Assembly (NCBI GenBank): GCA_964394985.1
Contig: CAYMZK010000002.1
Span: 22,349 to 86,348, forward strand
Direction: 5' to 3'
DNA length: 64,000 bases
DNA from: an uncultured Candidatus Saccharibacteria bacterium
GTDB taxonomy: Bacteria > Patescibacteriota > Minisyncoccia > Minisyncoccales > GWA2-38-27
Below, one piece after another: positions 14,587 through 31,772 of the stretch; positions within the stretch are counted from its first letter, which is position 1; the number at the start of each line of letters is the position of its first letter. The translations under genes were made by a program, and so were the position numbers. The notes under the pieces were generated by a model. It saw nothing but the letters and a program-made list of their open reading frames with translations, ran no database searches and was not told where the DNA came from.

Positions 14587-14769
14587 CTAGATGTTGTACA
14601 TCTCTTTAATTTCATAATAGATTATCTGTTCTAATCTAATTCTAGCTTGCTTGGAAAGCCCTAATGATTCAGTTATCTTTATCCATCTAGTATATTTATC
14701 TTGTAATATTAATGGTTTAGGTATGAAGAAGCTGTGGCCTCTCCATGCCTTTGTGGTACGATTAGTCAT
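14587..14769 (-). CDS. Hypothetical 60-aa protein, possibly the N-terminal HTH fragment of a transposase
   Basis: The ARIRLEQIIYY segment resembles N-termini of IS481-like transposases. This is weak and based on recollection only. Confidence 0.2.
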   Translation of the reverse strand: MTNRTTKAWRGHSFFIPKPLILQDKYTRWIKITESLGLSKQARIRLEQIIYYEIKEMYNI

Positions 14770-14770
14770 A

Positions 14771-14850
14771 AGATGAGATTACATAGGTTATTTATTGTTC
14801 TTTTACCCTCATTTTACCAGATTTTGGTAAAATAGGGGTGTTACCTATGT
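14771..14850. repeat. Long imperfect palindrome
   Basis: AGATGAGATTACATAGGT pairs with ACCTATGTATCTCATCT. Inner pairing is TTTTACC/GGTAAAA. Confidence 0.6.
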
Positions 14851-14858
14851 ATCTCATC

Positions 14859-16501: not shown

Positions 16502-17036
16502 TTAAAAAGATTTTGGGATTTGATAAAATCCCCTTAACAAAGTCATTGTTTTTCTTGTTTTTAAACTCTTTTTTTGAAAAAATATGATAATTAATATCTC
16601 TATTAACTAGTTTTTCTAACTGACAAATTTTTTCAATTAACAAATCTTCGTTTGGTTTACCAATAATCATTAAATCAATATCTGAAAAAGAATCTTCTTT
16701 ATTTTTTGCATAAGATCCAAAAATAAAAGCAATTTCTATTTTGTTAATTTTCTTCAATAATTCTTTTAGCCTCCCCTTAATCCCGACTGTTTTAAAAAAA
16801 ATGCTCTTAATTTCTTTATATAGAGGGTGGTTTTTGTTTATTTTAAAAAAACGACTATTTCCCTTAAATTCACTTTGCAAAATATCTTTTTTAACCAAAT
16901 CATTAATGTCTTTTTGGAAAACACCAGCTTTTTTATTTATTATCCTTCCAATCTCTCTCAAATAGTATTCTTTTCCCGGATCATTTAAAAAAAGCTCTAA
17001 AATTAAAGTTTGATTTTTAGTAAATTTTAATGGCAT
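16479..17036 (-). CDS. wHTH plus nucleotidyltransferase-domain protein (MNT-like)
   Basis: FIFGSYAKNKEDSFSDIDLMIIG matches the GSx(n)DxD polymerase-beta-type NTase motif. Confidence 0.7.
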   Translation of the reverse strand: MPLKFTKNQTLILELFLNDPGKEYYLREIGRIINKKAGVFQKDINDLVKKDILQSEFKGNSRFFKINKNHPLYKEIKSIFFKTVGIKGRLKELLKKINKIEIAFIFGSYAKNKEDSFSDIDLMIIGKPNEDLLIEKICQLEKLVNRDINYHIFSKKEFKNKKNNDFVKGILSNPKIFLIGDENEL

Positions 17037-17156
17037 AAATAGGGTGTTTATTATCTACATACAATTGTATGCTAAAAAAATACACCTGTCAATCTCCTGC
17101 ATAAAATATTAGGGGGCGCATCGCCTCCGAAAAAGCCCGCAAAACTCGCGGGCTTT

Positions 17157-17522
17157 TTATTTAAGTTCTTTTTTAATAAGCTCTATCATTTTAAAGGGAG
17201 GATAATCGGCCTTAAGAATAAACTTTTGTCCCTCAACAAACTTTCCCTTGTTTTTTAGTTCATCAATAGAATAGTTTGTTGTTACTAAAACTTTAGTGTT
17301 TTTATTTTTAGAACTTTTTTTAATTTCTTTTAAAATAGTTAGCCCGTCAATATCTGGCAAGATATAATCTAAAAGAATTAAATCAAACTTATCTTTTTTT
17401 ATTTCTTCTAAAGCTTCTTCTCCGCCTCTAGTATTAACAACTTCAAAGTCGGCTTGCTTCATAGCAATAGTATATACTTCTGCAGTATTTGGATCGTCTT
17501 CTATAAACAATATCTTTACCAT
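17157..17522 (-). CDS. Single-domain response regulator (CheY-like receiver)
   Basis: 121 aa with ILFIEDD...DLILLDYILPDIDG...K. Confidence 0.85.
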   Translation of the reverse strand: MVKILFIEDDPNTAEVYTIAMKQADFEVVNTRGGEEALEEIKKDKFDLILLDYILPDIDGLTILKEIKKSSKNKNTKVLVTTNYSIDELKNKGKFVEGQKFILKADYPPFKMIELIKKELK

Positions 17523-17631
17523 AATCCCTTTATTTCAGTATACTCTTCTTAATTTTAAACACAAGCAACTATTTCAATTCAATAAAGAAAGTAGTCCCTT
17601 TTCCTTTTAGACTTTGCTTCTTTAATCAATT

Positions 17632-17889
17632 TTATTTTCTAGTAGAGATTGGTAAAAATTTTTCTATTAGCAGGTCTACATCTTTATTCTTTTCCCAAAC
17701 TTTTTTCATGCTAAAATACATTTTCAATATACTAATATGCGGTTTTTGTTTTATTTTATAAATTTTTACCCATTCATCCTGGTTTTGTATTAAAATATTT
17801 AAACACTCTGAAAATTTATAAATTCTTTCTTTTTCTTCCTTGTAATTATAATTAACATTTAGGTAATTATAAAATATAATATGAAGCAA
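17632..17889 (-). CDS. Hypothetical protein inside the insertion scar
   Basis: ORF only, very AT-rich. Confidence 0.2.
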   Translation of the reverse strand: MLHIIFYNYLNVNYNYKEEKERIYKFSECLNILIQNQDEWVKIYKIKQKPHISILKMYFSMKKVWEKNKDVDLLIEKFLPISTRK

Positions 17890-17908
17890 CTCGTGCGGGG
17901 AAAAGCGG

Positions 17909-18004
17909 GAAAAGGGGTCAGGAGCCTTTTTTGTATGTTTATGCTATTAAAAATTATTTTTCAAAAGTGGATTGTCTCTTTTTATGATAATTTTCACGAA
18001 GACA
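17909..18004. repeat. Junction repeat unit (AAAAGGGGTCAGGAGCC...CACGAAGACA); second copy at 18524-18624
   Basis: The two copies are near-identical. Each abuts a copy of the kinase 3' end. Confidence 0.85.
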
Positions 18005-18503
18005 ATTCAATAAAGAAGGTGGTTCCTTTACCTTTGCCCTCAGATTCCGCCCAAATTTTACCATTATGAGCTTTTATAATATGTCCGGTTACATAAACGC
18101 CAATCCCCCTACCAAGACCATGAACCTTGCTAGCTTCTTTTCCTCTTTTAAAGGCAGATTTAAATAGCACCTTTGCTTTTTCCGGATCTAATCCAATCCC
18201 CGTATCTTTAACCGAAAGTAGCGCTCCTTTACTTTTAGCTTTTTGTAAGGTTACCGAAACACTTCCTTCTTTAGTGTATTTGATAGCATTATCAATAATG
18301 TTAAACAAAGCTACTTTTAATTTTTCTGGGTCAGCTTTAATTTCTGGAACACTGCCAATCTTCTTATAGGTTAAATCTATGCCTCTATTTTTTGCCTCAA
18401 AATGAAGTTCTTCCATTACTTCTTCAATTAAGTCTTCAAATTTAATTCCAGATTGTAAACTAACGACCTCTTTGCCCATCTGAAATTGAGAAATATCCAA
18501 CAA
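17994..18503 (-). pseudogene. Duplicated 3' fragment (HATPase_c domain) of the histidine kinase gene at 27770-29386
   Basis: The 169-aa translation is identical to the kinase C-terminus except for the last residues (ELSS* versus ELK*). The antisense ORFs 18127-18369 and 27900-28142 also translate identically. Confidence 0.9.
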
Positions 18504-18761
18504 AGCGTTAACTACTCTAATTGAAAAGGGGTCAGGAGCCTTTTTTGTATGTTCATGCTATTAAAAATTATTTTTCAAAAGTGGATTGTCTCTTTCTCTT
18601 TTTATGATAATTTTCACGAAGACAGTTCAATAAAGAAAGTGGTTCCTTTACCTTTGCCCTCAGATTCCGCCCAAATTTTACCATTATGTTCTTGCACTAT
18701 TTTTTTAATTTTTTAAATAAATCCAACATCTTAAGTTGAACCTGATTTTAAATTAGCAAGA

Positions 18762-19363
18762 TTAGCAAGGCATTATAATATCTCCCTTAATTGAAGAATA
18801 TTTGTTTTTACATATATTTTCTTGTTTGGTTTTTAATAATACATTTTTAAAATAGCATTTGATTCCTTTCCCTTCTTGAATTATTCCGCTATTTTGCAAA
18901 TGATAATAAAGGTGTGGCTCTGAAGTGTTTCCCGAATTGCCGCAAAGCCCAACAACTTGGTCTGTTTTAACTTTATCTCCTACTTTCACTTTTATGTTTC
19001 CTTGTTTCAAATGAGCAAAAACTGAAAATTCACTTTTGTGATGTTTAATAATTACTGCGCTTCCTATTGCTGAATACGGATTCATTGAACCAGGTATATT
19101 ATTTTTCACGCCATCAATAACTTCCACCACAAAACCGCTTACTGGAGCTAAGATTTTTTTCCAAAAGAATAAAAATCCTGATTTCTTTTACCTTTTCCTC
19201 TATACCTTTTATTTTTACTATTTAAAGCATCAAAGTCAAAAGCAAATTTCTGATTAGGTGCTTCGTGGTGAGCATTTGGTCTTTCCGTGTCTCCTCCCAA
19301 AAAACAGCCCAAGTCCTCTCAAATGGCAAATATAAAATTGTTTTGTTTCTTTTTTGCAACCAT
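18762..19363 (-). pseudogene. M23/LytM-family peptidase, disrupted by at least two frameshifts
   Basis: The C-terminal part is intact (GNSGNTSEPHLYYH). The upstream parts MVAKKKQNNFI / PFERTWAVFW / GGDTERPNAHHEAPNQKFAFDFDA lie in three different frames, and one shift is at a T6 run. Confidence 0.7.
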
Positions 19364-19369
19364 GTTTTA

Positions 19370-20590
19370 TTAGATTTTTGCAATACCTTGCTTGAGTAGA
19401 TTAATATCTTTAGTAACGCAAATCCTCGACCAAGACCCCTCTTCTTCAGGATTCATACCAAAAACATCACATGGATAGATTGCTAGACCCTTTTTAATAA
19501 ATTCGAGAATCATTTCATCTGGCGACAGCGTTTTATAGTATCGAAAATACACGCTATTACCACAGTTTGGATGAATAACATCAACTACATTATCGTTATC
19601 TATTAACGCGTTGCATACTTCGCTGTTACTCACCTGCTGCAACTTTTTATTTGTATCAACGGTGTAGTAATAATTATCGATTTCTTCATTTGAAAACCAC
19701 TTTAGGTCTTCAAATTTTATTCCAGTGCGAGCATAGTAACGAAGAGCTATATCCACAAGAAAAATAAAATCTGCATTAATATTTCCAGAAAAATTTCTGA
19801 CAAGCTGGCTGTTAGAGAGATGCTCAATCAATCTACGGTCTCCGATATAATATCCCGTTCTCATACCTGTCATGCCGGGCATATCTTTTGATAAACCATA
19901 AAGTTTTGCATAATTTTGATATGACCCCTGTATGTGCGGAATGTGAGAAAAACAATAATCTTTATAGACCGTATCAAAATATATCTCATCACTAATAATA
20001 AACAAATTGCTTTCCTTGGATATAGCTAAAAGGTCTTTTGTCCAGTTTTCCGAGTAAATCTGGCACGTTGGGTTGTTAGGATTGGAAAAAAGTATAGCAG
20101 CAGTATTTTCGGTTATATTTTCTGATATTTGGTCTATAGTCACTTGATAATTATTCTCCCTTTTCGAATAAATCAGTTTTGGTATGCCTCCAGCATACTC
20201 TACTGAAGAATGAAAAATTGTATAATCTGGACTAAACAAAATTACTTCTCTTCTGTTCTTATTTTCTGGCAAATTAAGAACAGCTTCTATGGTTGGAAAA
20301 ATAATAGAACTAACGCCGCTACCGACAAATACTTCACTTTTGTCAGAGGAAATTCCCGTTATATTTTTTTCATAATCTAAGACTAGTTGTTTAAACCTTC
20401 TAATACCTCCGAAATCCGAATACGTTAGTGTGTGATGTTTAAACATCAGATCAATTGCTCTTTTGTATATCTTGGGCATTTTAAAAAACTTGGTGTCATA
20501 ATCCATGCTCTCAAGCCTAAGTAACTTCTTCCCATATTTTACGAAGAGGTCCTCATAGAAAAACATTCTTTTATACTTTAATTGTCTCAT
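19370..20590 (-). CDS. PLP-dependent aminotransferase (class I/II fold)
   Basis: YGLSKDMPGMTGMRTGYYIG contains the PLP-lysine region. The start was chosen at the TAATG overlap with the upstream stop. Confidence 0.75.
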   Translation of the reverse strand: MRQLKYKRMFFYEDLFVKYGKKLLRLESMDYDTKFFKMPKIYKRAIDLMFKHHTLTYSDFGGIRRFKQLVLDYEKNITGISSDKSEVFVGSGVSSIIFPTIEAVLNLPENKNRREVILFSPDYTIFHSSVEYAGGIPKLIYSKRENNYQVTIDQISENITENTAAILFSNPNNPTCQIYSENWTKDLLAISKESNLFIISDEIYFDTVYKDYCFSHIPHIQGSYQNYAKLYGLSKDMPGMTGMRTGYYIGDRRLIEHLSNSQLVRNFSGNINADFIFLVDIALRYYARTGIKFEDLKWFSNEEIDNYYYTVDTNKKLQQVSNSEVCNALIDNDNVVDVIHPNCGNSVYFRYYKTLSPDEMILEFIKKGLAIYPCDVFGMNPEEEGSWSRICVTKDINLLKQGIAKI

Positions 20591-21312
20591 TATATCTTTG
20601 TGGCATATAAAAAAGACCAATCCTCTCCATAGCTCGGTATGTAAACAGACGATTCTTTGATATCGGGAAAGTAATCTGATAGCGATTTCTTTAGAATATG
20701 TATTGCTGGTATATATTTGTTATCAACCTCTGTGGAACCAGCTTGTAAGATCACCCACCCTCCTATATTTAGATTTCTATGAATTTCGCGTAGCAACTTG
20801 TAATAGAAAGCTTTAAAATCATCTATCTCCTTTGTACCAACAGGAGTATCAGTAAGATCACATAAGATTGCATCGAATTTAGAATTATTATTTTTGAGAT
20901 ACAATAAGGCGTCACTAACTATAAAATTGATACTCTTATATGTCCGATCATTAGAGTGTATATATTGACCGGTAAGTTTTATAACATCTTCATCAATTTC
21001 AACAACTGTGATGTTAAGATGTGGGTGCTTTTTTGTCACGTGCATAGCGATGTATCCATCACCTCCGCCAAGAATCAAGATATTTTTATTATTGCCGTCC
21101 AATGGAAATAAAAAATGTGTATCATATAACTTATGATCTGTCTCGGCTGTTTGCATGCATCCATCTATAATCAAACATTTCCCAAACTCTAGCGTGTCTA
21201 AAATTTCTATTTGTTGGTATTTGCTTTTCTTATCACAAAGCGTTTCCAGTACATGAACAGGCATTGTGCTGCCGGTGGAAAAGACAGGAAGATTTATAAT
21301 CTTATTTTTCAT
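20590..21312 (-). CDS. Spermidine synthase-like aminopropyltransferase (stand-alone paralog)
   Basis: Motifs [19 protein letters not shown] and CDLTDTPVG. Confidence 0.7.
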
Positions 21313-22573
21313 GATTATTTATCGAAAAGTTATTATGCAATAATTCTTTAACAAACCCCGGCAACGCAAACGATGCTCTGTGTATTTCTTCGTTATAATA
21401 ATGCAACTTATTTCGCTCTGAAAATTCTTTAGCATATTCGTAATTATAATTTTTTGCAGGATCTATAGCGTGTTTGGCACAAAGACAAAAACTCCATAAA
21501 CCAGAGGGATATGTTGGGATTGGAGCTAAAAATAGAGAAACCGTCTTAAACTTTTTGCGCAAATTTAAGTATGTATTCCTTAAAACGCTTGGATTATACC
21601 AAGAAGACCCATTTTGGAGTACTAAGATTCCATCATTTTTTAATACTCGATAAATATCTTTATAAAATTCACTGGTAAAAATACTAAGTGATGGGCCTAA
21701 TGGGTCTGTGCTATCCACGATAATTGTGTCATAAGTATCGTTGGTTAATTTTACATATTTTGCGGCATCTTGAATAATTAACTTTACCCTTTTATCGGCC
21801 AAAGAATCTGACCAAAAAGGAAGATGTGCTATGCTCGCTTTAATTACATCTTCATCAATTTCAACAACTGTGATTCTATTTATAAATTTGTGTTTTAGAA
21901 GCTGAACAACCACTCCTCCGTCGCCACCACCAACCACTAAAATATTTTGAGGGCTAGCGTGAGTTATTACCGGAATATGAGAAATCATTTCATGGTAAAT
22001 AAACTCATCTCTCTCACTTGTCATGATTGCACCATCAAGAACAAGTGTTTTGCCATATTCAAATGTATCGTAGACTTCAACAATTTGATATTCTGATTTT
22101 TTTTTGAATAGCGGAAATCCCTTATGCCTTAATGAATACAATACATTATTATGCCTTTCTGTAACCCAGCGATCATTCCTTAAGATTGACTTAGAAGAAA
22201 AACCGTCATTTAAGTGTTTTAAACGTTGGTCTCCTCGCGATATTTCCATTGTTAAAACATCGCCGGCGCGTAAGACAACTTTTAGGTAATCAAAAGCATC
22301 CCAAGGATTGACGTTTTCTCCGCAAGTGAAAATATCAACTGCCGCGTATTTATATTCAGGCCACGTATGTATAGACAGGTGACTCTCTTTTATAACCACC
22401 ATGCCTGATACACCAAGTGGAGGGAAGTGATGGAACATTGAATTTACAACGGTGGCATTTGCTATCTCGGCAGCTTTAGCCATAACGCTCTCGATATAAG
22501 CAACATTGCACAATTTTTCCTCTGAGCAATCATATAATTCAATTAAAATGTGTTTGCCTAACTTTTCTTGCAT
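21302..22573 (-). CDS. Fusion of S-adenosylmethionine decarboxylase proenzyme (SpeH/SpeD-type) and spermidine synthase (SpeE-type)
   Basis: N-terminal [27 protein letters not shown] is the pyruvoyl AdoMetDC signature. C-terminal motifs are [18 protein letters not shown] and VDSTDPLGP. The start was moved to Met23 (MQEKLGKH), 4 nt after the upstream stop. Confidence 0.8.
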
Positions 22574-22577
22574 AAAA

Positions 22578-23498
22578 TTATGTGAATTTAGATGTGATTG
22601 GTCGAGACTGCAAAATATAAATATTATTTTCTTTGGCACACCACTCTATATCCATCGGTCCCCGGAAAATTTTCTCAACTTTTTTTGCGATTTTTGACAA
22701 GGATATTATCTGTTCGCCCGTGAGTTTTTGTTCTTTCCATTTACGATTGGGTACTTTGCGCAATCTTCCGTTAAAGAATCTCAATTTGTGCTTTTGTGCG
22801 TTAAAATAAACTTCCAGAATGATGTTACCGTTTTTCTCTACAAGATATCTGTCCGGAGTTGCCTGTCCTTGAACTAAGCGTTCACCTATTCCATGAACAG
22901 CCTCTATAATAAGTTCTTTGGAGTCTTCTTTATAAATATTCTCTGTAAAACAAACGCCGGAAACACTCGCATCAATCGCTTCCTGTATCAAGACAGCCAT
23001 TTTGATTTTCTTGATATCCTCAGGTCTTTTTAAATACTTGATTATTCTTTCAGAAAATACAGAAGCCCACACTTTTTTAATGTACCTCTCTATATCTTTA
23101 TATTCGACACCGATAAAGCTTTCAAATTCTCCAGCCCAAGACTTTGTCAAAGCATCTTCTGTGTTGGCAGATGATCTAACCGCCCAGCTTTTGACACCAA
23201 TATTTTTAAGTCCCACTAATTCGTCTTTTAGTTTGCTGTCAATTTTTTGGTTTTCTATTTTACTTCTAATTTTTGCCAGCACCTCAGGCAGCCCGTTATC
23301 TTGGCTGGCAAAGATTAACTCAATTTCATCTTTTAAATCGGCCCTGCCAATATGTTGTACAAAAAAATCCGAGTCTAGAGCAAAGCTTTTCGGAATAAGA
23401 ATGTCGTTTTTTGACATTTCAATAAAGGGCGCGCTTTTTCCACCAACTTTGTCACGAGAAAGAGAAGCGCTTTTTTTATTTAAAGAATATATTTTCAT
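22578..23498 (-). CDS. PEP/pyruvate-binding (PPDK_N, ATP-grasp) domain protein
   Basis: Motifs VGGKSA and [22 protein letters not shown]. The start at MKIYSL lies 1 nt after the upstream stop. Confidence 0.75.
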
Positions 23499-23499
23499 A

Positions 23500-24675
23500 T
23501 TATGATATTTTCTTAGCAATCCCATTACGGGCATCTAATAAAATTCGTTCTCCGTCTTTAAAAAATTTTGTTGCCGTCTTAGTGCCCACAAGGCAAGGTA
23601 TTTTATACTCTCTACTCACTAAGGCGGCGTGGGACATTAACCCACCTTCATCTGTAATTATTCCGCTCACTTTTGAAAAACCAATGGTCAAATCAGGAGA
23701 TGTCATTGGAGCGATTATTATATCTCCTTTTTTTAAAGAAGAAAAGAATTTTTCGTAATCACTCTTGCTAAATAATAGCGACGCGATTTTTGCTCTGCCT
23801 TTAATTTTGCCAGGGTACGCAACTGTTCCGCCAATCTCTTTTTTCTTCGTGTTCTCGTTTTTCTCAATGGCATTTATCTGTTTAAGGCTCAAGTTTTCAA
23901 GAAAGGTCTTGCCATTTTTTACTAAAACCTTGATCCCAAAGATTTTGCTTCTTGCATTTAGCTTATGCGTATCAATTTTGACATTCATAGACAATAACTT
24001 TCTCAATTCATCTAAAGACATGTTGGATATTTGAGATACCGCATAGTTAGTCCTTACGGCGGTTTCCTTTAAGAGTATTTCGGTATCCTCTAATAAATTT
24101 TCTATGATTTTTTTTGCTTCAAATCTTATTTTTGAAATACTATTGACCAAATCAAAGTCATCCTCATACTTTTGCAGACCGTATTCTTTGATTTTTGTTT
24201 TTTTTGACGACAATATCTCAGCCAACAAAACATCCGTGGATTTTCTAGAATTAACTCTTTTGGAGACAATTTTCTTGATATTATTCTCGACATGTTTTAA
24301 CAAATGAGGTTCTGTAAATCGATATATCTCAATGTATTCGCCATAGAGTTTAATTAAATCATTATACAAGCTAAAAATACCATCATTTGATAACTCTTTT
24401 ATGTTTAAACTAACAAATGTTTTATGAAAAATGTTTATCTTTTTTTTGATTACCGAAAAGTCTTTTTTTGTTTCCAATAATGCTTCTGGGTTTTTAATTA
24501 AATTATTAGTCAGGATCAGCGCCTTTTTGATTTCTCTGTTTGTCGCATAAGCAGAGAGCACACCGCCATGATATATTAAATACCCACTATCAAAAAAATA
24601 GTGTTTTCCTGTTGTCTCTGTTGCCCACAGGTAGTCTAAGTAATTTTCTCTCCATAGAAAGATGCCGCTTTTCAT
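23500..24675 (-). CDS. Protein with a C-terminal PEP-utilising-enzyme mobile (phosphohistidine swivel) domain
   Basis: The C-terminus reads MTSPDLTIGFSKVSGIITDEGGLMSHAALVSREYKIPCLVG. No motif was recognised in the N-terminal ~290 aa. Confidence 0.75.
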   Translation of the reverse strand: MKSGIFLWRENYLDYLWATETTGKHYFFDSGYLIYHGGVLSAYATNREIKKALILTNNLIKNPEALLETKKDFSVIKKKINIFHKTFVSLNIKELSNDGIFSLYNDLIKLYGEYIEIYRFTEPHLLKHVENNIKKIVSKRVNSRKSTDVLLAEILSSKKTKIKEYGLQKYEDDFDLVNSISKIRFEAKKIIENLLEDTEILLKETAVRTNYAVSQISNMSLDELRKLLSMNVKIDTHKLNARSKIFGIKVLVKNGKTFLENLSLKQINAIEKNENTKKKEIGGTVAYPGKIKGRAKIASLLFSKSDYEKFFSSLKKGDIIIAPMTSPDLTIGFSKVSGIITDEGGLMSHAALVSREYKIPCLVGTKTATKFFKDGERILLDARNGIAKKIS

Positions 24676-25799
24676 ATCGTTTTATAGAATTTAAACAATA
24701 ATTTTTTGTTTCGTATCATGTGCATTAACTCAAAACTGTAATCAATAAAACTGTTTTTAATTTTTTCTTGTTTTTCTTTCGTAATACTAACATTTAAAAA
24801 TATTTTAAGCAAATACTTTGATTCGTTTATTTTAATAATGTCGACTTTGATAAAAAATTCTCCCCCCAAGATCAGATTCACTATCTTTTTTATTTCATCA
24901 ACCTCGATTCTATATCCCTCATGAAGATCAACGGTTAATTTTAATCTTCTGTCCACCCATATTCGAGGGTGAGATAATCCGCATTTACATTTATCGTACG
25001 ATATTCTACACCTGTCTCCAGACAGATATTTGATTATTTGAGTACCTTCCGGATTAGTGTTTAGGGTAGTGATTACTAATTCCCCCCATTCATTTTTACC
25101 CAAATCTTGTCTTGTTATTGGATCAACAATATCTAGCTTAATTTTTTTTCCATTAAAATGGTACCCATCATGCTGGCTGCATTCGGTGCCAATCACAGCC
25201 TCAGTTAGACCATAAGCGTCATAGACTTCACCGCCATAAATAGCCTCTATTGATTTTCTGTCTTTGTCACTTAATTTTTCTCCGGTCGTTTCAATTATAC
25301 GAAAATTATAATTAACAACAGCGTCCTTAATTTCTAATAACACCGAAGGTAAAGAGGATATTATCGTGGGTCTGATTGTTTCAATTATTTCTTTAATTTT
25401 TTGCAAAGGTAAATCGTTATCAACTGGAACTACTATATTGCCCGCCTTTATATGGCCAATATTTGTTATATAACCAACGCCCCAAAAGGAATGATCCATT
25501 AAAACTATAACTGTTTCATTTTTTATGGCTTTTTCCACGCTACAAAACCATTTTATATAGTCAGAAAAATACTCAATATCGCTGTCGCTATAATAGATTG
25601 CCTTTGGGTTCGAAGTAGTTCCGCTAGTAAAAAATACAGTGCTCCCGTTGACCTTCTGATCAGCGTATACTGATTGGATTTCTGAAGAATCAATAAAGGG
25701 TAATCTATTAAAATTAAAATTCTTTACCTTTTTATATCTATCAGAATAGAAGGGTTTCCTTTTTGCGGTAGCAATAACTTTTTTTAGATTATCTTTCAT
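24672..25799 (-). CDS. Adenylate-forming enzyme (phenylacetate-CoA ligase / F390 synthetase / CapK-like)
   Basis: Motifs FFTSGTTSNPK, YGLTE and YLSGDRCRISYDKCKCG. The start is uncertain (Met42 or Met47 of the ORF). ATGA overlap with the downstream gene. Confidence 0.75.
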   Translation of the reverse strand: MKDNLKKVIATAKRKPFYSDRYKKVKNFNFNRLPFIDSSEIQSVYADQKVNGSTVFFTSGTTSNPKAIYYSDSDIEYFSDYIKWFCSVEKAIKNETVIVLMDHSFWGVGYITNIGHIKAGNIVVPVDNDLPLQKIKEIIETIRPTIISSLPSVLLEIKDAVVNYNFRIIETTGEKLSDKDRKSIEAIYGGEVYDAYGLTEAVIGTECSQHDGYHFNGKKIKLDIVDPITRQDLGKNEWGELVITTLNTNPEGTQIIKYLSGDRCRISYDKCKCGLSHPRIWVDRRLKLTVDLHEGYRIEVDEIKKIVNLILGGEFFIKVDIIKINESKYLLKIFLNVSITKEKQEKIKNSFIDYSFELMHMIRNKKLLFKFYKTI

Positions 25800-27009
25800 A
25801 GCTCCTTTGATCATCGACTGATAGAAGTATTTTAGTTCCCCTATAAGAAGATTTAAAGTTCTTAACCTCAAACTTAATAAATCCTTGTGCACATACATCT
25901 GAAAAATCCAACGACATGTTTTGCAAATTTTGGGCAATCTCTTTCAGTGAAGTCTGGTCCATTTTTTTATCTGTTCCAATATTGAATATGATGTTGTCTC
26001 GACCAGGATCACCGTCAAATATACTAACCTTGCATTCCTTAATGTGCACACTCATTTTTTTAAAAGACTCTATAATCTGGTATGGGAAAACAGTAACGGC
26101 ACCGGAAAGGTTAAATACGTTCTTTTCTCGACCATCTAGAAAAACCTGTGGCAGCGCGGTACCACATTCGCAACTTATATTTTTAATCCGCCCTAAGTCG
26201 CCCATGGAATATCTATAAATTGGAACAATATCAGAATCGTAAACTGTAAATAATAAAGCATGATCCTTATTTGTATCTATTTTAACATAGTCGGGGTTAT
26301 AGTGATACCCTCTCGAAAACTCACATTTATACCCTATAAAAGCTTCGGAAGAAGCATAAGTAGAAAAAGATTTTGCCCCGATTATATTATAAATCTTATC
26401 TCGAATATGGTCGGGCATAAATTCCCCAGACGTAATAACTTTTTCTAATTTTAATTTTAACTCATTCTTTTCCAGGAGAAAAATAAACATGCTCATAAAA
26501 CTTGGTGTTGTTATAATTGTATCTATTTGGTGCTTCTTTATTATAGAAAATAAAGCAATAATTTCGTGCTCATCTTTTAGTAAACCCAGGGGGAAGGCCG
26601 TACTGCCAATTAGCTTTACCGCTTCATATGTAGAAGGTCCTGCCACCCAAGGTCCAAAAGGAAGCAATATTGCTACCTTATTGCGTTTCTTAAGCCCAAT
26701 CTTTTTATAACAGTTGGCTCGATATAAGGCTCTTTTATAAATTTCCTTGATAGAAAGTGGTATCATTTTTGGCTGACCAGTAGTTCCCCCCGAAAAGTAA
26801 AAGAAAGATGCTTTATGTTTGGTATTGCTTAAAAAATCTTTGACATTAGCCCTATCAAAGAGATCTTTATTGGAGGATAAAAGTCTCAACCCATTCTTTC
26901 TAATTTTATTTCTATAATAGGAGGTCTTTAGAACCTTCACTAGCATTTTTAGATTATTAAATCTTTTCTTGCTTACGTTTATAACCTTATTATTTTTTGT
27001 GTCTAACAT
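25789..27009 (-). CDS. Adenylate-forming enzyme (PaaK/F390 synthetase-like), second paralog
   Basis: Motifs FYFSGGTTGQPK and YSMGDLGRIKNISCECG. Confidence 0.75.
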   Translation of the reverse strand: MLDTKNNKVINVSKKRFNNLKMLVKVLKTSYYRNKIRKNGLRLLSSNKDLFDRANVKDFLSNTKHKASFFYFSGGTTGQPKMIPLSIKEIYKRALYRANCYKKIGLKKRNKVAILLPFGPWVAGPSTYEAVKLIGSTAFPLGLLKDEHEIIALFSIIKKHQIDTIITTPSFMSMFIFLLEKNELKLKLEKVITSGEFMPDHIRDKIYNIIGAKSFSTYASSEAFIGYKCEFSRGYHYNPDYVKIDTNKDHALLFTVYDSDIVPIYRYSMGDLGRIKNISCECGTALPQVFLDGREKNVFNLSGAVTVFPYQIIESFKKMSVHIKECKVSIFDGDPGRDNIIFNIGTDKKMDQTSLKEIAQNLQNMSLDFSDVCAQGFIKFEVKNFKSSYRGTKILLSVDDQRSYER

Positions 27010-27189
27010 AAAAATTGCAAAGATTATTTACATCTGTTATTATTAGTATGTACAATTTTATTCATTTAGTCAAAGAAAATTAGGGAAGGGAGTTCCTTAC
27101 TGTCGCCCACGCATAGTTGGTATGGGGCAAGAGGGAAATAGCAGAAATAGCAGAAATAGAGTCAGCCACCATTCTTTCGCCCACCCACT

Positions 27190-27768
27190 CTACGGAGAGT
27201 ATGAACTTTTATGTTTTATTGATCTTAACATCAGTTCTGGTTTACCAATATTTAATTCTTTTCCTAGTTTTATATCTAATAATTTAAGAAAGTTTCTAAT
27301 TTCTTCTTTAGCTCTACTTATGTCTTTTTCTTTAACAACCAACCTTTCAACTTCTAAAAATATTCCTAGGTTTTTTACATCCTCAAGAACAATCTCATAT
27401 TTATCTGTTAAAAAAGTGTGTTTCTTGTTTTCTATTTTAATCAATTTTTTAAATCCTAAATATTTTAATATTTGCATGCCTTGCTTAAAACTAGATAATT
27501 CTACTTCGTGTCCATCAGAATATAACCAAATTCCAGCGCTATCAAAACGATCAATTTTATAAGCAAGGAAGTTCTTTTTATTCTTTTTTCTCAATCTAAA
27601 ACATTTATCCAAGTTACCGGATTTATTAGGCTTAAGATCGTTTCTCAGGGGATCATAAAAATAGATATCCAAAACCTCTTTAGATCCTAAAAATTTAAAC
27701 TCCTTTAAGGCTTTTAATGCTTTTGATTTTTTATCTAAAACTTTAACCAAGATCTCTACTTCTTTCAT
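27190..27768 (-). CDS. CYTH-domain protein (class IV adenylate cyclase / triphosphatase fold)
   Basis: N-terminal KEVEILVKV resembles the CyaB-type EVEIK start. The start codon lies 1 nt after the kinase stop. Confidence 0.55.
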   Translation of the reverse strand: MKEVEILVKVLDKKSKALKALKEFKFLGSKEVLDIYFYDPLRNDLKPNKSGNLDKCFRLRKKNKKNFLAYKIDRFDSAGIWLYSDGHEVELSSFKQGMQILKYLGFKKLIKIENKKHTFLTDKYEIVLEDVKNLGIFLEVERLVVKEKDISRAKEEIRNFLKLLDIKLGKELNIGKPELMLRSIKHKSSYSP

Positions 27769-27769
27769 G

Positions 27770-29386
27770 TTATTTCAATTCAATAAAGAAGGTGGTTCCT
27801 TTACCTTTGCCCTCAGATTCCGCCCAAATTTTACCATTATGAGCTTTTATAATATGTCCGGTTACATAAACGCCAATCCCCCTACCAAGACCATGAACCT
27901 TGCTAGCTTCTTTTCCTCTTTTAAAGGCAGATTTAAATAGCACCTTTGCTTTTTCCGGATCTAATCCAATCCCCGTATCTTTAACCGAAAGTAGCGCTCC
28001 TTTACTTTTAGCTTTTTGTAAGGTTACCGAAACACTTCCTTCTTTAGTGTATTTGATAGCATTATCAATAATGTTAAACAAAGCTACTTTTAATTTTTCT
28101 GGGTCAGCTTTAATTTCTGGAACACTGCCAATCTTCTTATAGGTTAAATCTATGCCTCTATTTTTTGCCTCAAAATGAAGTTCTTCCATTACTTCTTCAA
28201 TTAAGTCTTCAAATTTAATTCCAGATTGTAAACTAACGACCTCTTTGCCCATCTGAAATTGAGAAATATCCAACAAAGCGTTAACTACTCTAATTAATCT
28301 TCTAGTTGAAATTTGAAATTTTGTTAATGGTTCTTTTAATTTTTTTGGAATTTTTCCATAAGTTCCACCAAACATTAAATCAAGATAGCCAATCATAGAT
28401 GTTAGGGGAGTCCGCAAATGATGTTGGGTGGCCATAATAAACTGGGTTTTGGCTTCAGTAATCTTTTCAATTTCCTTTCTCGCTTTCTTCTCCAACTTAT
28501 ACGCCCTCTGAACCTTCTCATTCAAAACCTGCAACTGCTCTCTATGCTCCACCTCTTTAATTACGCTTCTAATCAATAATATTCCAAATAAAACAACTGC
28601 AATCAATAATCCTCCATTTATAAAATAGTCTTTTAATTCTTCCGATAATAAAACTCTAGCTAGCAAGAAAATCCAAATTGCAAAAGTAAGCAACTCCGTT
28701 GCAATAACTTTAATATCAAACAAATGATGCCTTAGAGCAGCATAGCTAATAAAAATAACATATAGTATTACTAGATAGTTTCCAAACGGATATATATTAC
28801 TAGAAAATATTTGAGGAAAAAAGTTAGTCACGCCCCCACCAAAACCAAATAAAATTGCTACTAGCAAGTAGTTAATTTGACCCTTTTTTGTTCCCGAAGC
28901 ATTTTTTCTAGAAGAAAATAATATGTATGTAGTGCGAAAAATATAAAGTATAAAAAAGGCAAAAAAAGAATAATAAATTGAGCCAGGCTCAATCCAATAA
29001 TTAAAGTTTGTAATAGGGGGCACCCCTTTTACAAATAAATCTGTAAATAAATTAAAAACAACCAAAAAAGTAAAAGCAAAAAGGTAGCCAACTACAATAA
29101 ATAATTTTTCTTTTTCATTTTTATTTAACACCGAAACAACAAAATGATAAAAAAATATAGGTATAAAGATTGCTCCTATATTTAATATCTTGTTCCAAAA
29201 AAAAGCTAAATTATAATTAGGAGACGAGACCTCCATGCCTAAAGAAAATGCCCAAATTCCAATAGCCAAAGTAGTTAAAAACCACAATATATTTATTTTT
29301 TCTTTATAATTTTTAAAAAGCACAAATAGACCCATAAAGATACTGGCTCCGGCTGTAAGAAATGAAGATATGACAAATAAAGACAT
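27770..29386 (-). CDS. Sensor histidine kinase with a multi-TM N-terminal domain
   Basis: 538 aa with about 7 TM helices, an H-box (ATQHHLRTPLTSM) and an HATPase_c domain (DNAIKYT, DTGIGL, GLGRGIG). Confidence 0.9.
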   Translation of the reverse strand: MSLFVISSFLTAGASIFMGLFVLFKNYKEKINILWFLTTLAIGIWAFSLGMEVSSPNYNLAFFWNKILNIGAIFIPIFFYHFVVSVLNKNEKEKLFIVVGYLFAFTFLVVFNLFTDLFVKGVPPITNFNYWIEPGSIYYSFFAFFILYIFRTTYILFSSRKNASGTKKGQINYLLVAILFGFGGGVTNFFPQIFSSNIYPFGNYLVILYVIFISYAALRHHLFDIKVIATELLTFAIWIFLLARVLLSEELKDYFINGGLLIAVVLFGILLIRSVIKEVEHREQLQVLNEKVQRAYKLEKKARKEIEKITEAKTQFIMATQHHLRTPLTSMIGYLDLMFGGTYGKIPKKLKEPLTKFQISTRRLIRVVNALLDISQFQMGKEVVSLQSGIKFEDLIEEVMEELHFEAKNRGIDLTYKKIGSVPEIKADPEKLKVALFNIIDNAIKYTKEGSVSVTLQKAKSKGALLSVKDTGIGLDPEKAKVLFKSAFKRGKEASKVHGLGRGIGVYVTGHIIKAHNGKIWAESEGKGKGTTFFIELK

Positions 29387-30537
29387 TATTTTTCTATTTC
29401 CTTTTTAATATATGCTAAAGTTTCTTTTACGCTGGGCGGGCATTTATCTAAATTTTTCATTCCTTTCTTTTTAGCAAAACATTTTGTGCAATTTCCAATA
29501 CATATAATTTTTTCGTTTTTCGGCAAATCTAATCCATCTGCCTTGCCAATTACTACATTTATTTTTTTATTCCCCAAAAAAATTTTTCTTATAATCTTTA
29601 AATGTTTAAGGGGGTGTTTTTTTATTAATTTCCCGGATTCATTAATTGCAGTTATACATCTTGAACAACCAGTGGTGGGCCATGCATATATATTTTTACC
29701 AAATTTTTCGAATCGTCTAGCCAAAGAAAAATTTTTTATTTTAAAACCTTTTACTGACTCAAGTAATTCTTTTGAGGGATAATTTCCAACTTTAATTTTA
29801 TTTGCGATAAAAATATGATTTATTCCCCTGAAATCTAAATTTATTAAATACGAGATTACAGAATCTAATTCCACCATATCATTTCCTGCGATTAATAAGT
29901 TTGTTTTTTTACTATTACCATGATGTGGGCCATTTCCCTCCATTGAAATTATCCCGTCAACTATATTTAAATCTGGTTTTATAGTTTTAGCTAAATGTGC
30001 AATCATTTCCTCTAAATCGTTCTTATGCATTTTTATTCTATCAGCCATAGAAACTAAACCCATTTGATTCTTTAAAGAAAATGTCACAGTGGTTTCCATG
30101 TGTGTTTTTAATTTTGCGAAGTTTATATGGCCATCAAATTCTTTAATTCTTTTGGGGATAAGAAAAGTGAAGTCCTCTATCTCAACTAGCTCTTTTTCTT
30201 CTTTATCTAGATTTACAAGCTCTACATTTTTCATTTTATAAAGAAAATCAAAACCACCTTTTTTAATTATATCACTAAAAGAGAAAATTTTATCTTGAGT
30301 TCCCAGTAAAGCACCGTGGCCAACAAAGACTTTGTCTGCTCCTAACTCTAACAAAGTTTCAATTAATATTTTTAATAATTCCGGGTCTGTATTCTCGCCA
30401 GAAATAACAGGAGGCCTTCCGGAAAAATTTGGTTTAATAAAAATCTTCCCGCTAGGAGAGAAATTTAAATCTTTAATTATTTTCTTAAAACTATTTTTAG
30501 CCTTATCTTTGTTGCTTTTTAAAACTAAAACTGACAT
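29386..30537 (-). CDS. DUF362-domain protein with a Cys-rich C-terminus
   Basis: 383 aa. The IFIKPNFSG...TDPELL pattern is typical of DUF362, and C-terminal Cys clusters are present. Confidence 0.6.
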   Translation of the reverse strand: MSVLVLKSNKDKAKNSFKKIIKDLNFSPSGKIFIKPNFSGRPPVISGENTDPELLKILIETLLELGADKVFVGHGALLGTQDKIFSFSDIIKKGGFDFLYKMKNVELVNLDKEEKELVEIEDFTFLIPKRIKEFDGHINFAKLKTHMETTVTFSLKNQMGLVSMADRIKMHKNDLEEMIAHLAKTIKPDLNIVDGIISMEGNGPHHGNSKKTNLLIAGNDMVELDSVISYLINLDFRGINHIFIANKIKVGNYPSKELLESVKGFKIKNFSLARRFEKFGKNIYAWPTTGCSRCITAINESGKLIKKHPLKHLKIIRKIFLGNKKINVVIGKADGLDLPKNEKIICIGNCTKCFAKKKGMKNLDKCPPSVKETLAYIKKEIEK

Positions 30538-30684
30538 TTAATTTTCTGCTTGATTTCTTTATTTCATTATACCTCAATATCAATTTAATTTAAATGAAAA
30601 ATGTTTAAAATAACTAATCGCATTGACCCCGAAATAAACCAGTGCTAATATAAAAATAGATTAAGTTAAATAAATTTAATTAAA

Positions 30685-31764: not shown

Positions 31765-31772
31765 TTCAATTT

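What the first reader, a model, noticed from the sequence alone, without database searches (positions are those of the whole stretch)
17570..28295. A histidine kinase/response regulator pair is split by about 10 kb of accreted DNA, with nested duplications of the kinase 3' end
The receiver gene (17157-17522) is followed by a diverged 39-bp copy of the kinase 3' end at 17570-17608, which keeps the same stop-codon context as the full gene. Next come a 518-bp copy (18005-18522) whose overlapping ORFs translate identically to those of 27778-28295, and a ~63-bp copy (18626-18688). The two longer copies are each preceded by the same ~100-bp unit starting AAAAGGGGTCAGGAGCC. The intact kinase lies only at 27770-29386. 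The pattern fits repeated insertion at, or recombination through, the kinase 3' end, each event regenerating part of the target. The 18.7-27.8 kb segment, which carries the biosynthetic operon and a CYTH gene, is the cargo. No integrase is present inside the segment.
Basis: partly seen in the sequence, partly recalled or inferred. Interest (0 to 1): 0.65.

Follow-up and report, generated by a model that had tools for sequence, protein, structure and literature searches.

The report
Integrase-free insertion hotspot splitting kinase–regulator pair
In this small-genome candidate-phyla (Parcubacteria-type) bacterium, a sensor kinase and its partner regulator have been pushed 10 kb apart by repeated gene insertions that entered through the end of the kinase gene and left a stack of leftover kinase-end copies, a scar pattern that recurs in related genomes, never with a dedicated insertion enzyme inside the insert.

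Summary
Window 18003-18522 equals 27776-28295 (520 bp, 100%). Shorter kinase-end copies lie at 18623-18688 (97%) and 17570-17607 (89%). A ~100-bp unit (U1, U2) follows the two longer copies.

Related genomes have contiguous DUF362-HK-RR-NusA (HK-RR gap 43-130 nt), so the pair was split by insertion. The HK|RR gap is a lineage-wide hotspot. About 9 independent lineages (12 of 43 loci) carry same-strand, 5'-truncated relics of their own kinase 3' end downstream. None lies upstream or on the other strand. No insert examined in any genome encodes an integrase or transposase.

Relic-versus-live differences sit mostly at third codon positions (80 of 120), so recombination with diverged functional alleles was involved. 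An independent k=31 assembly of run SRR7048227 breaks exactly at every repeat boundary, so the junctions are not scaffolding artefacts.

The receiver gene has its own nested 3'-end copies (14302-14501, 14015-14058). The cargo is composite: a backbone-like CYTH gene, a seven-gene operon that looks foreign by GC3, and a frameshifted M23 gene. ORF85 is a gene fragment.

Best explanation: homology-anchored, integrase-free insertion (Campbell-type or homology-facilitated illegitimate recombination). Moderate interest; a new member of a known kind.

The parts
29386..30537 (-). DUF362 gene, a conserved backbone neighbour upstream of the kinase
   Evidence: Pfam PF04015. The same DUF362-HK adjacency occurs in L001, L005, L007-L009 and L011.
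27770..29386 (-). Live 7TM histidine kinase (538 aa), ending ...FFIELK*
   Evidence: Pfam HisKA_7TM, HisKA, HATPase_c. Identical to database protein P0001; the nearest relatives are 72%, 70% and 63% identical.
27776..28295 (-). Copy 1 of the 520-bp perfect repeat (the last 520 nt of the kinase coding sequence up to codon L537)
   Evidence: Logan unitig L090 ends exactly 30 nt inside it, at 28266.
27190..27768 (-). CYTH (class IV adenylate cyclase-like) gene; its ATG lies 1 nt after the kinase stop
   Evidence: Pfam PF01928. GC3 0.228, like the backbone. A 71%-identical CYTH lies in the same HK|RR gap in L085/L086.
19370..27009 (-). Seven-gene biosynthetic operon: two AMP-binding enzymes, PEP-utilizers, PPDK_N, an AdoMetDC-spermidine synthase fusion, a second aminopropyltransferase-like gene and an aminotransferase. 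This is the part of the cargo that looks foreign.
   Evidence: Pfam. GC3 0.29-0.35 against 0.21-0.26 for backbone genes. Reproduced 100% in the independent contig L087.
18762..19312 (-). M23 peptidase gene broken by a frameshift in an A7 run (~19150-19160)
   Evidence: Pfam PF01551 on 18762-19130. Translation and sequence. The same sequence is in L087.
18623..18688 (-). x66: a 66-nt 5'-truncated kinase 3'-end relic, ending ...FFIELSS*
   Evidence: 97% to the live gene, and both differences are synonymous. The junction with the M23 side at 18688|18689 is reproduced in L087.
18523..18622 (-). U2: the 3' flank of the 'SS*' kinase allele. It ends (in gene orientation) with GCTCCTGACCCCTTTTC at the blunt junction with the 520-bp copy.
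   Evidence: A read-graph branch at this junction is inferred from L090.
18003..18522 (-). X518: copy 2 of the 520-bp perfect repeat, a 5'-truncated kinase fragment ending ...FFIELSS*
   Evidence: HATPase_c domain intact.
17896..18002 (-). U1: the same 3' flank as U2 (1 substitution plus a 6-bp indel), about 13 nt longer at the motif end (17896-17908), abutting the ORF85 fragment
17632..17895 (-). ORF85: a 5'-truncated 3' third of a ~230-aa HExxH-motif gene (homology starts at ...HELLH)
   Evidence: phmmer against 1.84 billion representatives: P0241 residues 148-230, E=1e-14, with most hits 217-258 aa long. Sequence comparison. No Pfam family.
17570..17608 (-). relic39: the oldest kinase 3'-end relic (KGKGTTFFIELK*), 46 nt upstream of the receiver start
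   Evidence: All 4 differences plus the stop codon change are synonymous.
17124..17522 (-). Stand-alone receiver (response regulator) gene 17157-17522 plus its intrinsic terminator 17124-17156
   Evidence: Pfam PF00072. Terminator found.
14502..17123 (-). Second inserted block: a nucleotidyltransferase, a 260-aa ORF, a DUF3419-like gene and a 60-aa ORF
   Evidence: Pfam. Logan unitig L091 = 17164..14464 ends inside both flanking repeat copies.
14302..14501 (-). 5'-truncated copy of the receiver gene's last 167 nt plus its terminator (99%)
14015..14058 (-). A further relic: a terminator copy with only the last few nt of the receiver gene

Best explanation
The ancestral operon DUF362-kinase-(~45 nt)-receiver-NusA was split by several successive insertions that needed no integrase. 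Incoming DNA came from conspecific or related Parcubacteria. It carried a stretch of the kinase 3' end followed by other genes, and it paired with the resident kinase by ordinary homologous recombination.

The far end of the insert was joined without homology inside or just after the resident kinase 3' end. This could happen by a Campbell-type single crossover of a circularised fragment, or by homology-facilitated illegitimate recombination (HFIR) of linear DNA taken up by natural transformation. Either route keeps the kinase intact. It leaves a 5'-truncated, same-strand copy of the kinase end, with whatever lay downstream of it, on the far side of the insert.

Repetition stacked the scars. 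In gene order they are: live kinase, CYTH, operon, M23, x66+U2, X518+U1, ORF85 fragment, relic39, receiver. Selection keeps only outcomes that preserve both the kinase and the short kinase-receiver junction, which is why relics so often sit directly in front of the receiver gene.

The perfect 520-bp copy is either the most recent event, with a donor from the same population, or a relic homogenised by gene conversion with the live gene. The same process acted on the receiver gene's 3' end.

Shown: the repeats and junctions, the contiguous ancestor, the recurrence across lineages, the strand and direction bias, the absence of recombinase genes, and the allelic nature of the differences. Inferred: the recombination route and the DNA-uptake route.
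For: (1) A contiguous ancestor exists. DUF362-HK-RR-NusA-H+PPase occurs with HK-RR gaps of 43-370 nt in L005, L009, L039, L003/4/10 and L006. The window keeps the whole backbone (acyltransferase...RNase Y), but every gap is inflated by about 10 kb.

(2) The relics are recurrent and polar. In 12 of 43 loci (about 9 lineages), the last 150 nt of the locus's own kinase recur downstream on the same strand. The count is 0 on the opposite strand and 0 of 36 upstream. Relic 5' ends vary from about 21 to over 500 nt from the stop (a separate 774-nt near-identical repeat joins two full-length kinases in L017), while 3' ends stop at the stop codon. In L034, L021, L037 and L015 the relic lies 45-90 nt before the receiver gene.

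(3) L085 and L086 are two independent assemblies that are 100% identical over 6.4 kb. Both show HK, a toxin-antitoxin pair, a relic, CYTH, CYTH/NUDIX, a relic, then RR.

(4) No integrase or transposase domain appears in any ORF of the window segment or in the larger ORFs of the inserts of L008, L015, L017, L021, L023, L024, L034, L047 and L073. The cargo is heterogeneous accessory genes.

(5) Differences between relics and live ends fall 26:14:80 over codon positions 1, 2 and 3 (p=9e-14 against an even spread), with 65 synonymous against 37 non-synonymous codons. The mosaics in L047 and L037 show recombination breakpoints inside the repeats.

(6) Logan unitigs of SRR7048227 are 100% identical to the window and end exactly 30 nt inside each repeat copy. 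L087 = 27805..18659, L090 = 34013..28266, L091 = 17164..14464.

(7) GC3 of the operon is 0.29-0.35 against about 0.24 for the backbone.

(8) Literature. [quoted passage not shown] HFIR integrates DNA with one homologous end (PMC3240628). Patescibacteria are naturally competent and integrate DNA by homologous recombination (PMC10633639). Most HGT into Patescibacteria comes from other Patescibacteria (PMC12455944).
Against: The U2|X518 junction is blunt, with 0-1 nt of microhomology, whereas classical HFIR joints usually show 3-8 nt.

Ages are out of positional order. x66+U2 lies nearer the live gene but has 4 differences in 166 nt. X518 lies farther away but has 0 differences in 520 nt. So an extra event (gene conversion or a separate duplication) is needed.

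The 5'-diverged, 3'-identical mosaics are not predicted by a single Campbell or HFIR event with a diverged donor. They need later allelic recombination, so 'born diverged' and 'born identical' cannot be separated.

Both U copies end within about 15 nt of each other, at a motif that is over-represented at other junction-like sites (9 observed, 0.09 expected). That hints at a sequence-specific component which the model does not explain.

Competence and recA genes of this genome could not be checked, because only the 64-kb window is available. No donor arrangement (kinase followed by the operon) was found.
Confidence: 0.6

Rival explanations
1. Tandem site-specific integration. The kinase 3' end is an attB for integrative elements (as with tRNA-targeting islands or tycheposons). 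Each element carried a kinase-end copy in its attP, and the integrases act in trans or have since been lost.
For: Flanking direct repeats of a target gene's 3' end, with newer elements pushing older ones outward, is exactly the pattern described for integrase-borne islands (bioRxiv 10.1101/2020.12.28.424599). The window contains one large serine recombinase at 53808-55202. The shared boundary motif at the ends of U1 and U2 could be a recombination site.
Against: No integrase is present in this insert or in the inserts of nine other genomes. Relic 5' boundaries are scattered from about 21 to over 500 nt from the stop, with no common core. Repeats of 200 and 520 nt here, and 774 nt in L017, are far longer than att sites. 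Serine recombinases need only a 2-nt identity and do not regenerate long target copies. The motif is absent from all 84 related loci then held.
Confidence: 0.12
2. Local replication or duplication errors. The kinase-end and receiver-end copies arose in situ by tandem duplication or fork-stalling template switching at terminator hairpins, followed by deletions. The cargo arrived separately by ordinary double crossover.
For: There are perfect or near-perfect repeats of 520, 200 and 83 nt flanking 9.8-, 2.8- and 6.1-kb blocks in one window. Several junctions lie next to terminators or hairpins. The [X+U] pair has a 614-620-nt spacing like a tandem duplication. The mosaics are compatible with copies that were identical at birth.
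Against: A 9.77-kb tandem duplication followed by deletion does not fit the data. It predicts the x66 variants in X518 and U1 identical to U2, but 4 differences fall in 166 nt against 0 in 520 nt. It does not explain why unique cargo always sits between the full gene and its relic. It does not explain relic39 (5 of 5 changes synonymous) or the overall third-position bias, unless allelic recombination is added.
Confidence: 0.13
3. Assembly artefact or chimera of co-existing strains. The perfect 520-bp duplication and the order x66-U2-X518-U1 reflect mis-threading of a repeat in a metagenome assembly.
For: The genome is a metagenome-assembled genome. The repeat is 100% identical. The read graph cannot by itself tell whether a cargo-free variant co-exists, and the order of nodes through the collapsed 520-bp repeat is not independently verified.
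Against: The U2|X518 junction has no k-mer overlap that could cause a false join. The independent k=31 unitig L090 stops exactly 30 nt inside X518, which shows a second predecessor in the reads. L087 and L091 reproduce the other junctions. U1 differs from U2, and x66 differs from the X518 end. Analogous structures occur in unrelated assemblies, including the L085 (JGI) and L086 (Logan) pair.
Confidence: 0.04
4. A 3'-anchored copying mechanism. 5'-truncated copies with a constant 3' end (kinase end plus U up to the motif; receiver end plus terminator) are made from a fixed 3' start point. This could be reverse transcription of transcript 3' ends, or one-ended rolling-circle transposition starting at the GGGGYCAGGAGC motif.
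For: x66+U2 and X518+U1 share a 3' end within about 15 nt but differ in their 5' truncation. The receiver-gene copies end just past the terminator. The motif is strongly over-represented, shows stuttered partial copies and a nested array at 46.69-46.78 kb, and heads a highly structured repeat family (z=-6.4).
Against: No reverse transcriptase or HUH/Rep gene was found among the window's annotated ORFs. In most other genomes the relics stop at the stop codon and do not include a 3' UTR. U itself is not significantly structured. There are no Rfam or viral matches.
Confidence: 0.05

Closest known systems
[quoted passage not shown] 2017, PMC5635113)
   Same: There is a fixed interval between conserved core genes (kinase and receiver/NusA). 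Its accessory content is different in almost every relative, and it has no integrase, transposase, prophage or conjugative genes. There are signs of allelic recombination in the flanking gene.
   Different: The published model is double crossover in both flanks, which leaves no scar. Here one end of each event fell inside or just after the left flank gene, leaving nested 5'-truncated copies of its 3' end.
Homology-facilitated illegitimate recombination, or insertion-duplication by Campbell-type single crossover (e.g. PMC3240628 and references therein)
   Same: One homologous anchor plus a non-homologous joint adds foreign DNA. A single crossover of a circle duplicates the homologous segment as direct repeats around the insert, exactly the full gene - cargo - partial gene layout.
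   Different: These are known mainly from laboratory transformation or conjugation assays. Here they are inferred from natural scars in uncultivated bacteria. The one junction that can be examined (U2|X518) lacks the usual 3-8-nt microhomology.
Integrase-borne islands with partial target repeats (tRNA/tmRNA islands; Prochlorococcus tycheposons, bioRxiv 10.1101/2020.12.28.424599)
   Same: The target gene's 3' end is regenerated and partial copies mark successive integrations. Older inserts are pushed away from the intact gene.
   Different: The target is a protein-coding kinase, not a tRNA gene. No integrase is present in any insert. Repeat lengths are highly variable and reach 520-774 nt, and there is no common crossover core.
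Integron cassette arrays
   Same: Co-oriented accessory genes are accreted at one site, with repeated intergenic elements between some cassettes (34-48 kb region).
   Different: No IntI-type integrase was found among the window's annotated ORFs. The boundaries are gene 3' ends or terminator modules rather than attC sites.

Membership tests
HR-driven MGE-free HGT hotspot | The interval is bounded by conserved core genes in a conserved synteny block | tested here: met
   DUF362-HK-RR-NusA-H+PPase-Tig-ClpP-RNase Y is shared with L003, L005, L008, L009, L013 and L085.
HR-driven MGE-free HGT hotspot | The gene content of the interval differs between related genomes | tested here: met
   The gap ranges from 43 nt to over 10 kb. 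Contents include toxin-antitoxin pairs, radical SAM enzymes, methyltransferases, NUDIX, a HisRS paralogue, M20, CYTH and the operon.
HR-driven MGE-free HGT hotspot | No integrase, transposase, prophage or conjugation genes in the interval | tested here: met
   Pfam scans of all ORFs of at least 50 aa in 17.1-29.4 kb and of the larger ORFs in the inserts of nine other genomes.
HR-driven MGE-free HGT hotspot | Elevated homologous recombination in the flanking core genes | tested here: inconclusive
   Third-codon-position bias of 80 of 120 differences, and mosaic relics, indicate allelic recombination in the kinase 3' end. No genome-wide recombination-rate comparison was possible.
Campbell-type insertion-duplication | Direct repeats of the homologous segment flank the insert, with one copy completing the gene | tested here: met
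   520-bp (kinase) and 200-bp (receiver) direct repeats flank 9.8- and 2.8-kb blocks, confirmed as read-graph branch points.
Campbell-type insertion-duplication | A circular intermediate carrying one repeat copy plus the cargo | not testable with these tools
   Needs reads or PCR across the predicted circle junction.
Homology-facilitated illegitimate recombination | An illegitimate joint at short (3-8 nt) microhomology | tested here: not met
   The U2|X518 junction (18522|18523) shows 0-1 nt of microhomology when compared with the live kinase and U1. The other joints lack a known donor sequence.
Homology-facilitated illegitimate recombination | The recipient is naturally transformable and RecA-proficient | not testable with these tools
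   Only a 64-kb window is available. Competence is shown for Saccharibacteria (PMC10633639) and inferred for Patescibacteria generally (PMC12455944).
Integrase-mediated island (tRNA-island or tycheposon-like) | A tyrosine or serine recombinase is encoded in or at the edge of the element | tested here: not met
   None in the segment or in the other genomes' inserts. The only recombinase in the window is 26 kb away, at 53808-55202.
Integrase-mediated island (tRNA-island or tycheposon-like) | A fixed crossover core, so that partial target copies share a boundary | tested here: not met
   Relic 5' ends lie at -39, -66 and -518 in the window, and at about -21 to over -260 in the other genomes.
Integron | An IntI integrase with attI, and attC-bounded cassettes | tested here: not met
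   No Phage_integrase-type hit among the window's annotated ORFs. attC models were not run. The boundaries are gene 3' ends.
Diversity-generating retroelement | A reverse transcriptase, plus a template/variable repeat pair differing at adenines | tested here: not met
   No RT domain was found. The long repeat is 100% identical, and the short ones differ at synonymous sites without adenine specificity.

The most novel reading that the evidence does not exclude
The nested relics are the footprint of a lineage-wide, integrase-free cassette-exchange system in Parcubacteria. Conserved gene 3' ends (here the kinase HATPase end and the receiver end plus terminator) act as portable homology handles. 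In this genome a 12-17-nt boundary motif (A4-6 GGGGYCAGGAGY) would do the same. Repeat-flanked blocks would pop out by recombination and re-enter any related genome after DNA uptake, working like an integron without an integrase. A still unidentified motif-specific nuclease or copying enzyme might set the distal ends.
Probability: 0.15. Interest if true: 0.7.

Novelty: new member of a known kind. Interest (0 to 1): 0.42.

Why it matters
Candidate-phyla (Patescibacteria) genomes are small and mostly uncultivated. They lack most classical mobile elements, yet they show substantial gene exchange, mainly with each other. This locus gives a readable natural record of how accessory genes are added without integrases. 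The same core-gene junction is hit repeatedly in many lineages, and each hit leaves a dated scar: a 5'-truncated copy of the kinase end. Such scars could be mined genome-wide to count and order insertion events. They could also be used to estimate how much of CPR gene gain comes through transformation plus homologous recombination, and to pick neutral, recombination-friendly insertion sites for genetic tools. On a practical level, 200-520-bp perfect repeats around multi-kb blocks will break or mis-thread short-read assemblies of these genomes.

Tried and rejected
- Diversity-generating retroelement: rejected. There is no RT, and the repeats are identical or differ at synonymous sites.
- Invertible or shufflon-type switching: rejected. 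All copies are direct and on the same strand.
- Silent-cassette antigenic variation (pilS-like): rejected. The copies encode the same conserved catalytic C-terminus.
- U as a known RNA: no Rfam match, and folding is not better than shuffles.
- Motif or unit in viral contigs: 0 hits. The motif is also absent from the 84 related loci then held.
- Donor context for the operon: the metagenome scan with the PEP-utilizers gene returned only two distant partial hits. No kinase relative among 78 genome loci has the operon next to it.
- Exact-protein look-ups for the kinase and the receiver failed. This was later explained by unitigs breaking inside the repeats.
- Promoter scan around the relics: no more sites than chance.
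- ORF85 as a real small gene: rejected. It is the C-terminal third of a ~230-aa family.
- 'M23 fragment' as a 5'-truncated relic: rejected. It is a frameshifted, near full-length gene.
- 'Relics were born diverged', my first reading of the codon-position test: weakened by the mosaic relics. Only 'in-situ duplication plus mutation-only decay' is rejected.
- Cross-lineage cassette transfer test (L015 against L073, AbiEii cassette): uninformative. The HSP spanning the kinase 3' part and the cassette is 79% identical, similar to the flanks at 72-76%.

Full report
**1. Observation**

All genes in the region are on the minus strand. Self-BLAST and repeat finding give these matches:

| Feature | Coordinates | Match |
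|---|---|---|
| 520-bp copy | 18003-18522 = 27776-28295 | 100% |
| 66-bp copy | 18623-18688 vs 27776-27841 | 97% |
| 39-bp relic | 17570-17607 vs 27771-27808 | 89%, E=1e-6 |
| Unit U1 vs U2 | 17909-18002 vs 18523-18622 | 1 substitution + 6-bp indel |

The live kinase ends FFIELK*. The two unit-bearing copies end FFIELSS* and then run into U. The 39-bp relic ends FFIELK* (TAG) 46 nt before the receiver start codon. Pfam confirms the receiver (17157-17522), the 7TM kinase (27770-29386), CYTH (27190-27768), a seven-gene operon and an M23 ORF.

**2. The pair was ancestrally contiguous**

The kinase is database protein P0001, from a 138.8-kb NCBI contig of a Parcubacteria-type organism. Its nearest relatives are only 72%, 70% and 63% identical. 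Orthologous loci show DUF362-HK-RR-NusA-H+PPase with short HK-RR gaps:

| Locus | HK-RR gap |
|---|---|
| L005 | 43 nt |
| L039 | 54 nt |
| L009 | ~130 nt |
| L003, L004, L010 | ~330-350 nt |
| L006 | 366 nt |

 The window keeps the same backbone, running from the acyltransferase at 42.2 kb down to RNase Y at 0.2 kb on the minus strand. Each backbone gap is inflated by roughly 10 kb. The 39-bp relic therefore marks the original kinase-receiver junction.

**3. The gap is a lineage-wide hotspot that leaves polar scars**

I scanned 78 genome loci holding kinase relatives with the window's proteins. The HK|RR gap varies from 43 nt to over 4 kb.

I then took the last 150 nt of each locus's own kinase and searched 10 kb either side.
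- 12 of 43 loci have a same-strand copy downstream. These represent about 9 lineages: the window, L001/2/7, L008, L015, L021, L034, L037, L047 and L085/6.
- None has a copy on the opposite strand.
- 0 of 36 loci have a copy upstream.

In L034, L021, L037 and L015 the relic sits 45-90 nt before the receiver gene. L085 (JGI) and L086 (Logan) are independent assemblies that are 100% identical over 6.4 kb. Both show kinase, Gp49/HTH toxin-antitoxin pair, relic, CYTH, CYTH/NUDIX, relic, receiver. Relic 5' ends are scattered from about 21 to over 500 nt from the stop, and 3' ends stop at the stop codon. In L017 a separate 774-nt, 99.5%-identical repeat joins the 3' parts of two full-length kinases and runs about 50 nt past the stop.

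**4. No recombinase in any insert**

Pfam scans of every ORF in the window segment and of the larger ORFs in the inserts of L008, L015, L017, L021, L023, L024, L034, L047 and L073 found no integrase or transposase. The inserts carry radical SAM enzymes, methyltransferases, NUDIX, HIT, guanylate kinase, a HisRS paralogue, M20 and amidoligase genes, and toxin-antitoxin pairs. The only recombinase in the window is a large serine recombinase at 53808-55202, next to tRNA-Arg.

**5. Nature of the differences**

Across all non-identical relic/live pairs, 120 differences fall 26:14:80 on codon positions 1, 2 and 3 (p=9e-14). There are 65 synonymous against 37 non-synonymous codons.
- In the window, all four relic39 differences and its stop-codon change are synonymous.
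- Both x66 differences are synonymous.

This rejects in-situ duplication followed by mutation-only decay, for which I estimate about 44% of differences at third positions.

Some relics are mosaics. In L047, about 95 nt at 72% identity are followed by 145 nt at 100%. In L037, a diverged 5' part is followed by 82 nt with one difference. So copies can be born identical or be homogenised, with the live gene later altered by allelic recombination. Either way, recombination with diverged functional alleles is involved.

**6. Not an assembly artefact**

Logan (k=31) unitigs of run SRR7048227 are 100% identical to the window and end exactly 30 nt inside each repeat copy:

| Unitig | Window span | What it shows |
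|---|---|---|
| L087 (9,147 bp) | 27805..18659 | Reproduces the kinase-stop/CYTH and M23/x66 junctions |
| L090 (5,748 bp) | 34013..28266 | Stops 30 nt inside X518, so a second predecessor (U2) enters the repeat in the reads |
| L091 (2,701 bp) | 17164..14464 | Ends inside both receiver-3' copies |

The order of nodes through the collapsed 520-bp repeat, and whether a cargo-free variant co-exists, remain unverified.

**7. Anatomy refined**

- The receiver gene has its own nested series: the full gene plus terminator (17124-17522), its last 167 nt plus terminator (14302-14501, 99%), and the terminator alone (14015-14058). These flank a 2.8-kb block holding a nucleotidyltransferase, a 260-aa ORF and a DUF3419-like gene.
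- ORF85 is the C-terminal third of a ~230-aa HExxH family (P0241 residues 148-230, E=1e-14). Homology begins at ...HELLH, about 5-10 nt from the extended end of U1.
- The M23 ORF is a near full-length gene frameshifted in an A7 run.
- GC3 separates the seven-gene operon (0.29-0.35) from the backbone, CYTH and M23 (0.21-0.26). A 71%-identical CYTH also occupies the same gap in L085. The 'cargo' is therefore composite.

**8. Order of events and an inconsistency**

x66+U2 differs from the X518 end plus U1 by 4 changes in 166 nt. X518 is identical to the live gene over 520 nt. So X518's identity is younger than the x66/U divergence, although X518 lies farther from the live gene. A 9.77-kb tandem duplication followed by deletion does not fit, because it would carry the x66 variants into X518 and would make U1 equal to U2. 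The likeliest readings are gene conversion of an older relic by the live gene, or a separate recent single-crossover or unequal exchange within the population. The U2|X518 joint is blunt.

**9. An unexplained motif**

The first 12 nt of U, GGGGYCAGGAGC, are preceded by an A-run and often by a stuttered partial copy. The motif occurs 9 times in the window against 0.09 expected. The sites are:
- at both U ends;
- 150 nt upstream of nusA, at 6888;
- at the head of a ~170-nt intergenic repeat family at 34-48 kb;
- in a nested array at 46.69-46.78 kb.

The intergenic repeat is highly structured, with three hairpins (z=-6.4), whereas U is not. The motif is absent from the 84 related loci then held and from viral contigs, and there is no Rfam match. 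It may be a breakage or joining hotspot or the end of a small element. I could not decide.

**10. Mechanism and comparison with known systems**

The best-supported mechanism is homology-anchored, integrase-free insertion through the kinase 3' end. The route would be either a Campbell-type single crossover or homology-facilitated illegitimate recombination after DNA uptake. Selection would then retain outcomes that keep both the kinase and the kinase-receiver junction.

This fits the class of MGE-free hotspots with recombination at flanking core genes (PMC5635113). It also fits HFIR (PMC3240628), and the demonstrated competence and homologous integration in Patescibacteria (PMC10633639, PMC12455944).

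It looks like integrase-borne islands with partial target repeats (tycheposons), but it fails that family's defining tests: there is no integrase and no fixed core.

**Verdict**

It is a new member of a known kind, and of moderate interest.

Noticed in passing
window 6888-6899, 17914-17925, 18528-18539, 37248-37259, 38306-38317, 42351-42362, 46695-46777: The 12-nt motif GGGGYCAGGAGC occurs 9 times against 0.09 expected. It is preceded by an A-run and by stuttered partial copies, and is always intergenic, at or near block boundaries. It forms a nested tandem array at 46.69-46.78 kb. It is absent from the 84 related loci then held and from viral contigs. Its function is unknown.
   Followed up: partly
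window 33960-34056, 37095-37265, 38152-38322, 42291-42369, 46540-46730, 47598-47683: A ~170-nt intergenic repeat family (88-100% identical) lies downstream of co-oriented accessory genes. It starts with the motif and folds into three strong hairpins (z=-6.4). It looks like a REP- or MITE-like element, or a shared terminator module that could also serve as portable homology.
   Followed up: partly
window 35300-35382 and 41394-41476: An 83-nt perfect direct repeat (terminator hairpin plus leader) lies upstream of the second CYTH gene and of a NUDIX gene. It flanks a 6.1-kb block of radical SAM and methyltransferase genes, making a third repeat-flanked block in this window.
   Followed up: no
window 14015-14501 and 17124-17323: The receiver gene's 3' end plus terminator is duplicated (200 nt, 99%), and the terminator alone occurs a third time. 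The repeats flank a 2.8-kb nucleotidyltransferase/DUF3419 block. Confirmed as read-graph branch points by Logan unitig L091.
   Followed up: yes
window 53797-55202: A large serine recombinase gene (GC3 0.42, foreign-looking) has a 3' end that overlaps tRNA-Arg(TCG) on the opposite strand. A 44-nt inverted repeat lies at 53967-54010 / 55140-55183. It may be a small integrated element.
   Followed up: no
window 18762-19312: The M23 peptidase gene is interrupted by a frameshift in an A7 homopolymer (about 19150-19160). The sequence is identical in the independent Logan contig, so this is a real pseudogene or a slippage-prone tract.
   Followed up: partly
window 27190-27768 and 34703-35290; L085 10001-11557: CYTH (class IV adenylate cyclase-like) genes recur at this kinase-receiver locus. 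There are two in the window and two (one fused to NUDIX) inside the HK|RR gap of L085. This may be a functional link with the two-component system rather than chance cargo.
   Followed up: partly
L017 2880-3653 and 10919-11692: Two full-length kinases with different sensor parts share a 774-nt, 99.5%-identical 3' portion that extends ~50 nt past the stop. Further kinase-end relics lie at 4179-4368 and 8448-8637. This points to gene conversion or module swapping between kinase paralogues.
   Followed up: partly
window 19370-27009: The operon has an unusual enzyme set: two adenylate-forming enzymes, a split PEP-utilising enzyme (PPDK_N plus mobile domain), an AdoMetDC-spermidine synthase fusion, a second aminopropyltransferase-like gene and an aminotransferase. 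It may make a modified polyamine. No close relatives with context were found in the scans made.
   Followed up: partly
L085 9779-9821: A kinase-end relic is itself split by a ~35-nt insertion that may form a hairpin (CTCTCACACCATAACGAAGTTTGGTAGTGAG).
   Followed up: no
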